UHGV virus genome: UHGV-0176901
Length of the DNA stretch: 16,685 nt
Direction: 5' to 3' (one strand)
Source: a virus
This document shows, piece by piece, positions 1-3,000 of this stretch (the first letter of the stretch is position 1; each line of letters begins with the position of its first letter). Made by a program: the position numbers.

Positions 1-3000
1 GCGACGCGTTATAAAGATTGTTGCGCTCAACGATGCGGTCGTAAACCTCGGCTTTCGGCGCTGCGATTGATAGTTTCTCCTGTGCGATCAGCTTTTGTTC
101 ATACTCATTAGCCCATGCTCTGGCAGCTTCCGCTGGGTTGGCGAAGTCCGGTAGCGCTGCTTTGCGCACCTGCTCTTCCAGTTCCTGCCAGCGATCGATA
201 ATCCTTGCACGAAGTTCGACACTGTAACCAGAAACCACCAGCAATGTGTCACGCTTAGTTAAAAGCCATTCTCTTTGCGATTGGTTGTTATATCCCTTGT
301 AACTTACTGATTTACTTGATTCACTCAAATTTGAGTGAATGAAATCAATATCTCTTAATACATTGTCATGCCGTTTGCCTGTCAGTTCCGCAATCTCACG
401 GCTAGACATTGTTTTTACTTCTGCGGTACTTATTAAACTGTTCATGATTTCATCTCCTCTCTCGCCGTCTCGTCGCGCAGGGGTTTAACCAGCATCAAAT
501 AGCCGGATTCAGTGAATACCCTCAACCCTCTAGTGGGGATGTCAAAAAACGGGAAGGCCGTTTTTTTATCAAAATCAATAACATAAGTATCCTCGCCATC
601 AATAAAATAGCTTGAGTTTCTTGTGTAGCTGTCACGAATTGTAGTTAACGGAACGCCATGCACAACAGCCACCTGCTGAAATGTAACCACACGCTCACCA
701 TTAAACTCGCAAGCTATTAGTGGGATATCATTAATCATCACGCTGTTCATGATTTTCCATCCTATCGTTGATATATTCAAATCAGGTTCTTTATCGCCGC
801 GATAAAAACAATTTAAGACTCGCATCTTATCCCGAGCTTTATCATCATCAAAAAATGTAAAACTCATTTCCTGCGATACCACGGAAGGTTGACAGCTGAT
901 TTCATCGCTTTATTTGCTTCAAGCCACATTTTTGAGTCACCAATAAATCTGGCTATTACTGCTTTGTTCTGTGCAGCACGAAGCATCTGGTGATTGATGG
1001 CTATTTCATTGCGCATAATAAGACCTCAACTCTTTTCCATCCGTCACGTAATTTACGGGTGATTCGTTCAAGTAAAGATTCATTTAGTTGGAAGGCACCC
1101 ATGCGAGCGCCTCCCGCGATTGCGTAAATCATGGGTGGTTCCTTATGTTGGTTTATTAGTAGGTTATTTTTGTTGCGAATACTTCGCCTTTTACGATGGC
1201 TGTTATGATATTTTTAGCAACATCTTCTGATGCGCCAACCTTGATAAGGTCAGCAAGTATTTTGTTATTTACTTCTTTCCGGTGAGCTCTATCCTTTGCT
1301 CTACGCTCTTCTTCTTCCTTGATTCTTTTTTCTTCTGCTATTCTGGCTTGCTCTTTTGCTTCAGCCTCGCGCCGGATTCGTTCAGCCTCCTCCTGTGCTT
1401 TTCTGCGTTCTGCTTCAATTGCTGCCTGCTTTTCTCTTTCAGCTCGTTCTGCTGCCTCTTTTGCTTCGCGCTGTGCTCGTTGCTCGGCTTCAATGCGTTC
1501 ACGCTCTGCACGTTCCGCTGCGGCCTTAGCTTCTGCTTCTCTCCTTGCTGCTGCTTCAATTTCGGCTTTTGCCTTTGCTTCGGCTTCTGCTCTGGCTTTC
1601 TCTTCAGCTTCTCTTTTTAAGCGTTCTTCATGCTCTCGCTTTTCCTGCTCCGCTTTGAGTCTTGCCTCTTCTCTTTGGCGGTCAAATTCGCGATCCATCA
1701 AAATCGCTATTTCATGGTCAGACTCAATTTGCTTTGCGAGAGCTTCAGCTGCTGCCTTAGCTTCTTCTTCGGCTTTAATCCGTGCCTGTTCCTCCTCATA
1801 ATCAGTAAGAGGCTGGCGCGCCTTGGCTTTCAGCTCATCAAGGCGATCACGCACTGTCTTGCGGTTAGCATCAATGAGCTTTGGAATTTCCTTCAGTTCA
1901 GCAACAAGGTCTTTGCCAAGACCATCGAGATATGTTTTCGTCTGCGCAACTTTATACGCCAGAGAAGCGATCTCCTTTCTGCCCTTTGCCGTTGTGATAT
2001 CAGGCACAAAGGACATAACTTCACGTTCAACCTTTTGAAGGATTTCTTCAATCTGGTCGGCAGACTGAAATACAGTCATTGCATTTGCTTTTTCAATAAC
2101 AACTAAATCTGTTACTTCACTCATATATCCTCCGTCAAAAAAAATTGCCCTCACACTGGAGGGCAAAGAAGATTTCCAACAATCAGAACAAGTCGGCTCC
2201 TGTTTAGTTACGAGCGACATTGCTCCGTGTATTCACTCGTTGGAATGAATACACAGTGCTGTGTTTATTCTGTTATTTATGCCAAAATAATTTTAATCAG
2301 CAATAAAATCTTCTGGTAATTTATCAACCACTTGATGGCTTATTATCAGCCATTTGCCATCCTTCGTCCCGTATGCATATTTCTGGCCTTTTATCATCAT
2401 GTGTTCAGCTACTGCCTTAACTGCCTGTTCGGTTACATCTTCTTTCTTTCCTACCCACATTCCTTTTTCAGTGTTTAATGTTCCTTGAAAAATACGACCA
2501 CTTAATGGGCTTACGCCCATAGTTTTTACTCTCATGTATCAGTCCTCAAACAAGTGGTTTGCTGCCAAAACAATGAACCATCCGGAAATTCCAGATAGTT
2601 CATAATTCACTCTTCAATACTTCCAACTTACTAATCGCCGAAAGATATCCGCGCTGATAGGGCATCATCATTCCTTCGAGCTTGCCACTTCTTAACTCCT
2701 CCCTGAGCAATTGTATTGCTTGATCAATAACCTCTGCCTTAGCGTCCTTTATGGCTTGCTTGCGGGGCTTTGCTTTCTGCTTTGGCAGATTTCTCAAGCA
2801 TGATGGAATGTATGTCTGATTCATCACTTACCTCGCTGTCAGTTGTTTTGATTTCCGGTAGCCTGCCGCGTAAAGAGCTACGTTTGGAAGACAAGTTGAA
2901 CCTTCATATTTTCTGGTCAACGTTGTCAGAGTTATCACTTCTGCTCTCATTGCTGGTTTGCGCTTGCATTGCAAGACCACTCGTGAAGGGGTTGGCCTGT

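What the first reader, a model, noticed from the sequence alone, without database searches (positions are those of the whole stretch)
1..445. Several Rha/ORF6N/KilAC antirepressor-like genes, at least one chimeric
The window holds six genes built from the same three domains: Rha-like plus KilAC (1..445 and 12398..13087), ORF6N alone (442..867), a small Rha-like protein plus ORF6N-KilAC (10382..11403), and a stand-alone Rha (15465..15989). The 1..445 gene is chimeric at DNA level: its 3' part is identical to 12808..12866, while an upstream 29-nt stretch (GCTGCCAGAGCATGGGCTAATGAGTATGA) is shared with 10998..11026 in the ORF6N-KilAC gene. Such modules are usually morons with regulatory or anti-immunity roles, and the shared tracts are recombination substrates within one prophage.
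Basis: seen in the sequence. Interest (0 to 1): 0.5.

Follow-up and report, generated by a model that had tools for sequence, protein, structure and literature searches.

The report
Shuffled antirepressor-like phage gene family
A lambda/P22-like phage contig carries six related "antirepressor-like" regulator genes built from three interchangeable modules, and the gene at the contig edge is a real patchwork of its relatives; this is a clear but ordinary example of the known module swapping in this protein family.

Summary
Pfam confirms Rha in A (1..445, minus strand), E and F, ORF6N in B and D, and KilAC/ANT in D and E. C is a sub-threshold Rha stub.

Gene A is a mosaic:
- Its N-domain is 99% identical to the roi-position gene of Klebsiella phage phiKp_30.
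- Its linker is Roi/D-type, with 29 nt exact (99..127 = 11011..11039).
- Its KilAC start is E-type, with 55 nt exact (1..55 = 12806..12860).

The window is a whole SPAdes-style contig that stops exactly 55 nt into the A/E repeat. A MEGAHIT k119 contig stops exactly 119 nt into the same repeat. So the repeat breaks assemblies rather than being created by them.

Five other assembled contigs carry full-length A (223 aa, Rha+KilAC) after kil. One 40.9-kb contig carries both A and E.

Recombination at these tracts is directly visible:
- phiKp_30's gene switches from A-type to D-type inside the 29-nt tract.
- Two A alleles differ only by a 14-SNP patch, and in that patch one allele equals E.

This is the known domain-swapping "Bro-N network". 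The "moron" and "prophage" readings are not supported: A and B are translationally coupled to kil, and the lineage lacks cI and shows no integrase where one is expected. Function remains inferred.

The parts
1..445 (-). Gene A: the 5' 445 nt of a 672-nt gene (223 aa; Rha N-domain, helical linker, KilAC). It is cut off by the contig end. ATG at 445..443.
   Evidence: Translation. Pfam Phage_pRha 65.5 bits. Full-length copies in L002, L004, L005 and L024 are 100% identical over the shared part.
1..55 (-). Start of A's KilAC module. It is 55 nt exactly identical to gene E at 12806..12860, and the contig ends exactly 55 nt into this repeat.
   Evidence: In full-length alleles the exact tract is 95 nt (L002, L005, L024) or 173 nt (L004). 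The k119 contig L009 ends exactly 119 nt into the same repeat.
99..127 (-). A 29-nt linker tract (encoding AARAWANEYE) identical to gene D at 11011..11039. It is the crossover point in phiKp_30 gp340.
378..403 (-). A 26-nt exact tract at the start of the Rha HTH (SREIAELTG), shared with E at 12440..12465. It lies within a 109-nt stretch at 80% identity (348..456 vs 12387..12495) that includes the RBS and the start codon.
442..867 (-). Gene B: ORF6N-only protein (141 aa). It overlaps the kil stop and the A start by ATGA. Residues 40-135 are 66% identical to the ORF6N of D. Residues 1-39 form a leader that is absent from the family profiles, so an alternative start at Met40 (nt 750) is possible.
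776..808 (-). A 33-nt patch (encoding FYRGDKEPDLN, in the B leader) that is 94% identical to the non-coding 12312..12344 upstream of E.
10382..10636 (+). Gene C: an 84-aa Rha-domain stub that lacks the last helix. It is ATGA-coupled to D.
   Evidence: Pfam 19.6 bits, below cut-off. PHROG 15709 at 2e-23 and PHROG 63 over residues 1-79. In sister contigs its 5' end is duplicated around an endonuclease-like insertion.
10633..11403 (+). Gene D: ORF6N, linker and KilAC (256 aa). It is the Roi homologue of Stx and E. coli lambdoid phages.
   Evidence: About 96% nt identity to the region containing genes annotated roi in Stx2 phages. Cluster members are named 'phage antirepressor KilAC domain-containing protein' in E. 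coli and Salmonella.
12298..12311 (.). GC-rich hairpin GCCCCGAAAGGGGC flanked by T/A runs (terminator-like). It sits between ninH plus a lambda-Q remnant and the E module.
12398..13087 (+). Gene E: Rha plus KilAC (229 aa). It supplies, or is the partner of, A's KilAC. It lies in inverted orientation to A, 12.7 kb away.
   Evidence: It is identical in four other contigs.
15465..15989 (+). Gene F: stand-alone Rha (174 aa; gene callers start it at GTG 15429). It follows the lysis cassette, and a terminator-like hairpin lies at 15295..15317.
   Evidence: Pfam 99.1 bits and TIGR02681 113.8 bits, above cut-off. PHROG 518 at 4e-78. Hairpin.

Best explanation
The window is one complete metagenome contig of a lambda/P22-like enterobacterial phage. 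It carries six paralogous genes of the 'Bro-N network', a family of phage regulators assembled from interchangeable modules. Here the modules are an N-terminal DNA-binding module (Rha or ORF6N), a long helical linker, and a small C-terminal KilAC/ANT module.

Gene A is a genuine three-part mosaic:
- Nucleotides 1-291 form an N-domain of its own type. It is 99% identical to the roi-position gene of phiKp_30. Its first 98 nt are 82% identical to E.
- Nucleotides 292-347 form a Roi/D-type linker.
- From nucleotide 391 onward it is an E-type KilAC.

B plus A together are collinear with D (ORF6N, then linker), with a Rha cassette inserted between the two parts and the KilAC exchanged.

The mosaic arose, and is still being reshaped, by homologous recombination and gene conversion at short identical tracts at the module boundaries. 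This step is inferred. A plausible catalyst is the phage's own Rad52/Erf-type annealing recombinase, whose gene lies about 240 nt downstream of A, after a 56-aa ORF, in the full-length contigs.

The 55-nt terminal identity is not a mis-join. It is the point at which the assembler gave up, one k-mer into the A/E repeat.

Expression (inferred from position):
- A and B are delayed-early genes of the N-antiterminated pL operon and are translationally coupled to kil.
- C, D and E lie in the nin region of the pR operon.
- F lies after the lysis genes in the late transcript.

Function (inferred, not tested): these are DNA-binding regulators. The N-module would provide target specificity. By analogy, the KilAC module would act on a host or prophage regulatory circuit, through repressor inactivation or SOS modulation. 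They are not classical P22 Ant-type antirepressors.

The confidence of 0.75 is a blend: about 0.9 for the structural and evolutionary part (real paralogues, mosaic by recombination, contig end caused by the repeat) and about 0.4 for the functional part.
For: Domains.

Contig identity: the window is ena:ERZ1034973 NODE_1092_length_16685.

Mosaic map (gene A coordinates):
- 1-98: 82% to E.
- 99-291: about 50% to E, but 99.5% to phiKp_30 gp340.
- 292-318: 78% to D. 319-347: 100% to D.
- 348-390: matches neither.
- 391-445: 100% to E.
- 446-560: 88% or 100% to E, depending on the allele.
- 561-672: 89% to E.

phiKp_30 gp340 is identical to A through nt 347 apart from 2 SNPs, and is D-like from nt 319 onward.

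Alleles A_L002 and A_L004 differ only at 14 sites within positions 486-539, and at those sites L004 equals E. The chance of such clustering is about 6e-15.

Assembly signature: the window ends 55 nt into the repeat and the k119 contig L009 ends 119 nt into it. Contigs whose exact repeat is 95 nt (L002, L005, L024) or that lack A's KilAC altogether (L003, L006, L008) run straight through. A and E lie on the same 40,877-nt contig.

Family-wide independence of the N, linker and C modules across 121 homologues, including Bro-N + same linker + same KilAC (P0085, P0104) and A-N + D-type KilAC (P0072).

Operon structure: ATGA overlaps at kil/B, B/A and C/D.

A Rad52_Rad22 gene, SSB and an Abc2-like gene lie downstream of A.

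Against: - No reads were available, so the A/E junction in this particular sample rests on the de Bruijn-graph logic and on other assemblies.
- That SPAdes used k=55 is my inference from the contig name and the program's defaults.
- Which A allele this sample carries is unknown.
- The direction of each exchange cannot be decided (who donated to whom; insertion of Rha into a D-like gene versus its deletion from one).
- The involvement of the Erf/Rad52-like recombinase is an inference.
- The structural matches are weak: Foldseek gives nothing at E<=1e-3 and no PDB sequence relative exists.
- No functional evidence exists for any of the six proteins.
Confidence: 0.75

Rival explanations
1. Assembly artefact: the identical tracts, and the apparent chimerism of gene A, come from a mis-join or from a collapsed repeat or strain mixture in a metagenome assembly.
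For: The window is a short-read metagenome contig, and gene A sits at its very end, exactly in the repeat.
Against: The contig ends in the repeat. It does not join through it. The A-specific to KilAC junction recurs, with the correct downstream genes (56-aa ORF, Rad52, SSB), in assemblies made with other programs and from other samples: MEGAHIT k119 contig L002, scaffolds L004 and L005, and SPAdes-style contig L024. In L002 and L024, A's KilAC differs from E at 30 positions, so it is not a copy of E pasted in by the assembler. The 29-nt tract lies inside unique sequence on both sides.
Confidence: 0.03
2. The shared tracts only reflect strong purifying selection on conserved peptide motifs in old paralogues. 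No recent recombination is involved.
For: The linker peptide (LPDF.NP.EAARAWA.E.E.K) and many KilAC residues are nearly invariant across the family. The Roi-type linker with an E-type KilAC is a common combination.
Against: Runs of 55-173 nt are 100% identical including all synonymous sites, and they are bounded abruptly by sequence at about 50% identity. A's KilAC is 98% identical in protein to the E gene of the same genome, against 83-92% for other family members carrying this KilAC type (97% in one, P0085). The 14-SNP patch polymorphism equals E. The phiKp_30 gene switches parents inside the 29-nt tract.
Confidence: 0.04
3. Functionally, at least one of the six proteins is a true antirepressor. 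It would bind and inactivate a CI/C2-type repressor, as P22 Ant or the Gifsy antirepressors do, so that this phage can overcome the immunity of resident prophages or induce them.
For: PHROG families 63, 130, 4608 and others are annotated 'anti-repressor'. KilAC/ANT is the C-terminal domain of the P1/P7 Ant proteins, according to PMC9043618. Trans-acting antirepressors that cross-induce prophages are documented (PMC3121763). The phage itself lacks cI, so these proteins cannot serve its own switch.
Against: No AntA/AntB or P22_AR_N/C domain is present. The only experimentally dissected KilAC domain inhibits the SOS response rather than a repressor (PMC9043618). From my own recollection of the older literature, HK022 Roi and the phi80/P22 Rha proteins were characterised through lytic-growth phenotypes in IHF-mutant hosts, not as antirepressors. 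The family annotations are not based on tested function.
Confidence: 0.25
4. The genes are morons: autonomous promoter-terminator cassettes expressed from a prophage for the benefit of the lysogen.
For: A, B and E are absent from all 5,426 complete E. coli genomes at megablast level, whereas their flanks are common. E follows a terminator-like hairpin and replaces the start of a lambda-type Q gene. F follows a strong terminator-like hairpin.
Against: A, B and C/D are translationally coupled to their neighbours by ATGA overlaps. No promoter-like site is predicted upstream of A, B, E or F, and promoter-like sites across the whole window are not enriched over shuffles. The lineage has no cI and no integrase was found, so there is no lysogen to benefit.
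Confidence: 0.1

Closest known systems
[quoted passage not shown] Source: PMC10111431; also Iyer, Koonin and Aravind 2002, cited from memory and via PMC9043618.
   Same: The Pfam domains are the same (Phage_pRha, ORF6N, ANT). The module combinations are free in the same way, there are several paralogues per genome, and the genes sit in dynamic early regions.
   Different: Nothing categorical. This locus adds nucleotide-level breakpoints (29-nt and 55-173-nt tracts), a gene-conversion patch between two inverted paralogues 12.7 kb apart, and natural recombinant and deletion alleles.
Roi of HK022 and of Stx-converting phages (nin-region DNA-binding protein)
   Same: Gene D occupies the same nin-region position, and the region containing it is about 96% identical in DNA to Stx2 phage regions whose genes are annotated roi. 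Gene A shares its linker.
   Different: A, B and E are not Roi. A carries a Rha module instead of an ORF6N module, has a different KilAC type, and sits in the pL operon.
Rha of phi80 and P22 (growth-inhibitory in IHF-deficient hosts; recalled from Henthorn and Friedman 1995)
   Same: F is a stand-alone Rha that scores above the TIGR02681 cut-off and sits just after the lysis genes, as I recall the P22 rha gene does.
   Different: A and E have only the Rha N-domain (below the TIGR02681 cut-off) fused to a KilAC. C is a stub.
AriS of Listeria phage phi10403S and its relatives (PMC9043618)
   Same: [quoted passage not shown]
   Different: AriS has an AntA/AntB N-domain and comes from Firmicutes. 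Its SOS-inhibiting activity has not been shown for enterobacterial KilAC proteins.
P22 Ant, P1/P7 Ant1/2 and the Gifsy antirepressors (PMC3121763)
   Same: They share the annotation 'antirepressor', and P1/P7 Ant share the KilAC domain.
   Different: No AntA or P22_AR domains are present here. Repressor binding is untested. The genes here lie in the pL, nin and late regions, not in an immI-type region controlled by Mnt/Arc.
Tandem roi-like paralogues of Jersey-like and Vi II-E1 Salmonella phages and of Klebsiella phages (FZ14, KpV79, RCIP0015)
   Same: They are the nearest DNA and protein relatives of A and E (68-81%). There are two or three adjacent Rha/KilAC genes per genome. The Vi II-E1 record annotates repeated gene-start sequences.
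   Different: Those paralogues are tandem and lie in siphovirus or myovirus backbones. Here they are dispersed over four sites of a lambdoid backbone, and two of them are in inverted orientation.

Membership tests
Pfam PF09669 Phage_pRha | HMM score above the gathering threshold (29.9 bits) | tested here: met
   A 65.5, E 56.8 and F 99.1 bits. C reaches only 19.6 bits and so does not meet the threshold on its own.
NCBIfam TIGR02681 (Rha subfamily, full-length Rha) | Score above 45.95 bits | tested here: inconclusive
   F scores 113.8 bits (met). A full-length scores 36.1 and E 29.9 (not met). Only F is a canonical Rha.
Pfam PF10543 ORF6N | HMM score above 27.8 bits | tested here: met
   B 40.5 and D 42.6 bits.
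Pfam PF03374 ANT / KilAC | HMM score above 25.3 bits | tested here: met
   D 113.8 and E 40.7 bits. For A the domain lies beyond the contig end. The full-length proteins P0001 and P0002 carry a precomputed PF03374 hit.
Bro-N network (domain-swapping proteins) | Member Pfam domains, plus evidence that the domains recombine independently | tested here: met
   The N, linker and C segments have discordant identities across 121 homologues. Breakpoints are mapped.
Roi (HK022 / Stx phage) | nin-region position between ninB/ninF and ybcO/rusA, and sequence orthology to annotated roi | tested here: met
   This holds for D only. The window matches Stx2 phage regions whose genes are annotated roi at about 96% nt identity, and the flanking genes are NinF, YbcO and RusA.
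P22 Ant-type antirepressor | AntA/AntB or P22_AR_N/P22_AR_C domains | tested here: not met
   None of the six proteins hits these Pfam families at E<=0.01.
P22 Ant-type antirepressor | Binds and inactivates a CI/C2 repressor | not testable with these tools
   Requires induction or binding assays.
AriS-like SOS inhibitors | The KilAC domain suppresses the RecA/LexA-dependent SOS response | not testable with these tools
   Only the domain is shared (PMC9043618).
Moron | Own promoter and terminator, transcribed independently of the phage operons | tested here: not met
   ATGA overlaps at kil/B, B/A and C/D. No promoter-like site lies upstream of A, B, E or F. The consensus scan is weak evidence, so for E and F this remains open.
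Known anti-phage defence systems (PADLOC) | A significant hit to a defence-system protein model | tested here: not met
   Only marginal hits (E about 1e-3 to 7e-3) to candidate PDC models.

The most novel reading that the evidence does not exclude
The short identical tracts at the module boundaries (gene start, linker, KilAC start) would be maintained as functional 'swap joints'. Together with the phage's Erf/Rad52-type recombinase and its many homing-endonuclease genes, they would let the phage re-assort DNA-binding heads and KilAC effectors at high frequency. One such endonuclease-like gene, a Rha-HTH fused to a Vsr-like domain, is inserted into the C/D locus in sister genomes. In this reading, in a lineage without cI or int, the battery of six or seven Bro-network proteins serves to attack the regulatory circuits of resident prophages or the host SOS response during lytic growth. 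A further possibility is that the inverted A/E KilAC repeats, which bracket the whole early control region, permit its inversion.
Probability: 0.1. Interest if true: 0.55.

Novelty: new member of a known kind. Interest (0 to 1): 0.25.

Why it matters
The case gives a clean view, at base-pair resolution, of how the 'Bro-N network' regulators exchange modules. The crossover points lie in tracts of 29 to 173 nt at domain boundaries. A natural recombinant, a gene-conversion patch and a deletion allele were all caught in circulating relatives.

It also has a practical lesson. Such intragenomic repeats break short-read phage assemblies exactly one k-mer into the repeat, so a truncated 'chimeric' gene at a contig end is a sign of a real repeat rather than of a mis-join.

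It does not reveal a new kind of system, and the biological role of these very common phage genes stays open.

Tried and rejected
- Species-representative genomes (genome contigs), scanned with full-length A: only distant alphaproteobacterial and Halomonas relatives at 34-44% identity, so there was no host assignment and no isolate copy.
- PDB by sequence, with a single protein and with a profile: nothing.
- PADLOC: nothing meaningful.
- Rfam at E<=1 and a tRNA scan: nothing. In particular there is no C4/isrK-type immunity RNA of the kind seen in some Bro genes.
- Test for inversion recombinants between A and E, using gapped junction patterns in IMG/VR: neither the parental nor the recombinant junction is present, so the test was uninformative.
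- Host inference from the tailspike: only partial matches at 34-60% to E. coli and Salmonella phage fibres, which is inconclusive.
- Literature search for Roi, Rha and IHF: the classical papers and Iyer et al. 2002 are not in the held library. They are cited from memory only.
- The 22-bp palindrome in A as a repeated operator: its half-site does not recur in the window beyond chance.
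Full report
**What the window is**

The window is an entire metagenome contig, ena:ERZ1034973 NODE_1092_length_16685_cov_120.5 (L007 is the window reversed). It covers the early-left, immunity, replication, nin, lysis and first late genes of a lambda/P22-like enterobacterial phage.

The gene order is as follows:
- On the minus strand: A, B, kil, cIII, a coiled-coil protein, DUF7446, and N.
- On the plus strand: a Cro-like HTH gene, a cII stub, an O-like initiator, and a primase-helicase carrying an intein.
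- Then NinB, a PAPS-reductase-like gene, NinF, C, D, YbcO, RusA and NinH.
- Then E, a 53-aa ORF, Q, holin, lysozyme, Rz, F and a gp49/66-family gene.

Large parts are 95-98% identical to E. coli, Shigella and Stx phages and to Klebsiella phage phiKp_30.

**The observation**

- Pfam supports Rha in A, E and F, ORF6N in B and D, and ANT/KilAC in D and E, all above the gathering thresholds.
- C reaches only 19.6 bits against Pfam Rha. It does match PHROG 15709 (2e-23), and it matches the same part of the anti-repressor family PHROG 63 that the N-termini of A and E match. It is a Rha domain lacking its last helix.
- The KilAC of gene A is not visible in the window, because the contig ends about 18 residues into it.

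The shared tracts are real, but the partner coordinates were slightly off.
- The 29-mer is at 99..127 (minus strand) and 11011..11039 (none of 200 shuffles gives two copies).
- The terminal identity is 55 nt exact, 1..55 = 12806..12860.
- Further tracts are 26 nt exact (378..403 = 12440..12465), 109 nt at 80% around the two start codons, 246 nt at 72% between the ORF6N parts of B and D, and a 33-nt patch at 94% (776..808 vs 12312..12344).

**Artefact or real?**

The exact identity with E is 55 nt long and ends at the contig end. By my own knowledge, 55 is the default largest k of SPAdes/metaSPAdes, and the contig name is SPAdes-style.

A MEGAHIT contig from another sample (L009, name k119_...) ends exactly 119 nt into the same repeat. 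Contigs whose A allele shares only 95 exact nt with E (L002, L005, L024), or whose A lacks the KilAC altogether (L003, L006, L008), run straight through. This is the signature of a genuine repeat that breaks de Bruijn-graph assemblies, not of a false join.

Full-length A (672 nt, 223 aa, Rha+ANT) is found with the same flanks in other assembled contigs:
- kil and B lie upstream.
- A 56-aa ORF, a Rad52-like recombinase, SSB and an Abc2-like gene lie downstream.

One 40,877-nt contig carries A and also an E identical to the window's E (L002 and L016 come from the same record). In L002 and L024, A's KilAC differs from E at 30 positions, so it is a separate copy.

**Anatomy of the mosaic (gene A coordinates)**
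- 1-98: 82% identical to E. This stretch, together with the RBS just upstream, is similar in the two genes.
- 99-291: about 50% to E, but 99.5% to phiKp_30 gp340.
- 292-347: linker, 78% and then 100% (29 nt) identical to D.
- 348-390: matches neither.
- 391-672: KilAC of the E type. It is 100% identical over 391-445, 88% (L002 allele) or 100% (L004 allele) over 446-560, and 89% over 561-672.

B and A together are collinear with D. The ORF6N of B corresponds to D nt 43-288, and the linker of A to D nt 352-471. So the pL locus looks like a D-like gene into which a Rha cassette with its own RBS was placed, and whose KilAC was exchanged. At the roi locus the converse is seen: a Rha stub (C) followed by ORF6N-linker-KilAC (D).

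**Direct evidence that the tracts are used for recombination**
1. phiKp_30 gp340 sits at the roi position. It equals A up to nt 347 apart from 2 SNPs, and equals D from nt 319 on, so the switch lies inside the 29-nt tract. Upstream it still carries the last ~80 nt of B and scraps of D's ORF6N, of the start of C and of the start of ybcO.
2. Alleles A_L002 and A_L004 differ only by 14 substitutions, all within 486-539, and there L004 is identical to E. E itself is invariant in the five contigs that carry it, the window's among them. The clustering probability is about 6e-15. This is a gene-conversion patch between two inverted paralogues 12.7 kb apart.
3. A 134-aa allele (L003, L006, L008) is a 520-nt deletion running from A nt 321 into the downstream 56-aa ORF, with 1-nt microhomology. 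This shows that A's KilAC is dispensable.
4. Across 121 homologues, the identities of the N, linker and C segments vary independently. Examples are A-N with a D-type KilAC (P0072), Bro-N with the same linker and KilAC (P0085, P0104), and two linker types on the same KilAC type. The Roi-type linker with an E-type KilAC is actually the commonest combination. What is special to A is its N-domain, plus the fact that its KilAC is closest (98% protein identity) to the E gene of its own genome.

A Rad52/Erf-type annealing recombinase is encoded about 240 nt downstream of A, after a 56-aa ORF. Such enzymes are known to recombine short and diverged homologies and to generate lambdoid mosaicism (PMC3945230). 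Its involvement here is inferred.

**How the proteins probably work**

The AlphaFold model of full-length A has mean pLDDT 77. It shows an alpha/beta N-domain (residues 13-96), a long helix (104-138) that contains the conserved linker motif, and a small C-domain (147-219).
- Foldseek finds nothing significant.

These results are compatible with DNA binding but do not prove it. Which domain of the model produced which match was not resolved.

Experimentally, the only dissected KilAC domain (Listeria AriS) inhibits the SOS response, while its variable N-domain regulates the phage (PMC9043618). Other 'antirepressors' cross-induce prophages (PMC3121763).

None of the six proteins has AntA or P22_AR domains, and none matches a defence-system model.

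Expression is inferred from position:
- A and B are coupled to kil by ATGA overlaps in the pL operon.
- C and D are likewise coupled, in the nin region.
- E follows a terminator-like hairpin, ahead of Q.
- F follows the lysis cassette and a strong terminator-like hairpin.

**Comparison with what is known**

[quoted passage not shown] 2002, which I cite from memory).
- D is the Roi homologue of Stx phages.
- F is a canonical Rha.
- A, B and E have no megablast-level match in 5,426 complete E. coli genomes.
- The nearest relatives of A and E are in Jersey-like Salmonella phages and in Klebsiella phages.

The 'moron' label does not fit A, B, C or D. The 'prophage' label does not fit the element (see the side observations).

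**Verdict**

The feature is real and well explained, but ordinary. It is a new member of a known kind, with an unusually clear record of the recombination events. Function is unresolved.

Noticed in passing
window 3100..4480: The immunity region has no cI gene. Homology to VT2-Sakai starts 2 nt before cro (3978) and stops about 42 codons into cII (4463), so cII is a 41-aa stub and the Sakai-type oR/pR is missing. The same layout, 98.9% identical over 3.9 kb, occurs in two other assemblies (L002, L003). Together with the apparent lack of an integrase in the sister contigs, this looks like a circulating virulent derivative of a temperate lambdoid/P22-like phage.
   Followed up: partly
window 3461..3763 and 5040..5280: There is an exact 238-nt direct repeat (3510..3747 = 5043..5280), plus 23-nt tandem units (GTGCAGGAGATTCACTAGGGGTA) that resemble origin iterons. 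A fragment of the O-like replication gene, with these units, is therefore duplicated into the place where cI would be. In L002 it forms a 139-aa ORF.
   Followed up: partly
window 4463..4662 vs 4752..4951 (ORF 4489..4743): An 84-aa HTH_36 ORF is an 80%-identical partial duplicate of the N-terminus of the O-like initiator (4778..5548). It begins exactly where the homology to cII ends.
   Followed up: no
window 3848..3886 vs 8719..8757: A 39-nt copy (82%) of the sequence just upstream of ninB (its RBS and start) sits between the duplicated O fragment and cro. This is another scrap in the rearranged immunity region.
   Followed up: no
window 5656..8562, intein about 6772..7794: The primase-helicase (968 aa, Toprim plus AAA_25) is interrupted by an intein of about 341 aa. 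It has a Hint domain and a LAGLIDADG homing endonuclease, and runs from CPLDEP to VATHN followed by T.
   Followed up: partly
L016:486-953, L018:326-793, L020:477-953; target site in window 10412..10477: Sister genomes carry a 433-nt insertion in the 5' part of gene C, flanked by a 66-nt duplication of C. It creates a 155-158-aa protein that has C's Rha-HTH N-terminus fused to a weak DUF559 / REase_MTES_1575 (Vsr-like endonuclease) domain. It looks like a free-standing homing endonuclease polymorphism at the roi locus. The window has the empty allele.
   Followed up: partly
window 12234..12275: A 13-codon remnant of a lambda-type Q gene (MRLESIAKFHSPT*) overlaps the ninH stop. It is 100% identical over 33 nt to 'antitermination protein' genes of E. 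coli prophages. The E module, a 53-aa ORF and a different Q (PF06530) replace the rest.
   Followed up: partly
window 319..340: A perfect 22-bp palindrome, ATTCACTCAAATTTGAGTGAAT, lies inside the Rha coding region of gene A (conserved in phiKp_30). About 0.004 such palindromes are expected in 16.7 kb. The RNA fold z-score is -2.4, and the half-site does not recur elsewhere in the window.
   Followed up: partly
L003:6495-6899, L006:2173-2577, L008:745-1149: A natural 134-aa Rha-only allele of gene A was made by a 520-nt deletion (A nt 321 to inside the downstream 56-aa ORF, with 1-nt microhomology). The left breakpoint is 2 nt into the 29-nt shared tract.
   Followed up: yes
L002, L003, L004, L005, L006 (region between the early-left operon and the tailspike): No integrase, excisionase or gtr genes were called or detected by Pfam between the last early-left gene and the convergent P22-type tailspike (Head_binding domain). 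Three independent contigs are 40.8-40.96 kb long, which suggests a complete genome of that size. Arc and a weak KilA-N-like ORF lie beyond the tailspike, and L004 and L005 carry HNH_3/AP2 endonuclease-like genes.
   Followed up: partly
window 1156..2220: An E/A/K/R-rich coiled-coil ORF (annotated 'TolA' or 'coiled-coil protein' in E. coli prophages) lies between cIII and DUF7446. In L002 and L005 it is replaced by a DUF2528 gene, and in L003 and L006 it is absent. This makes it a variable slot in the pL operon.
   Followed up: no
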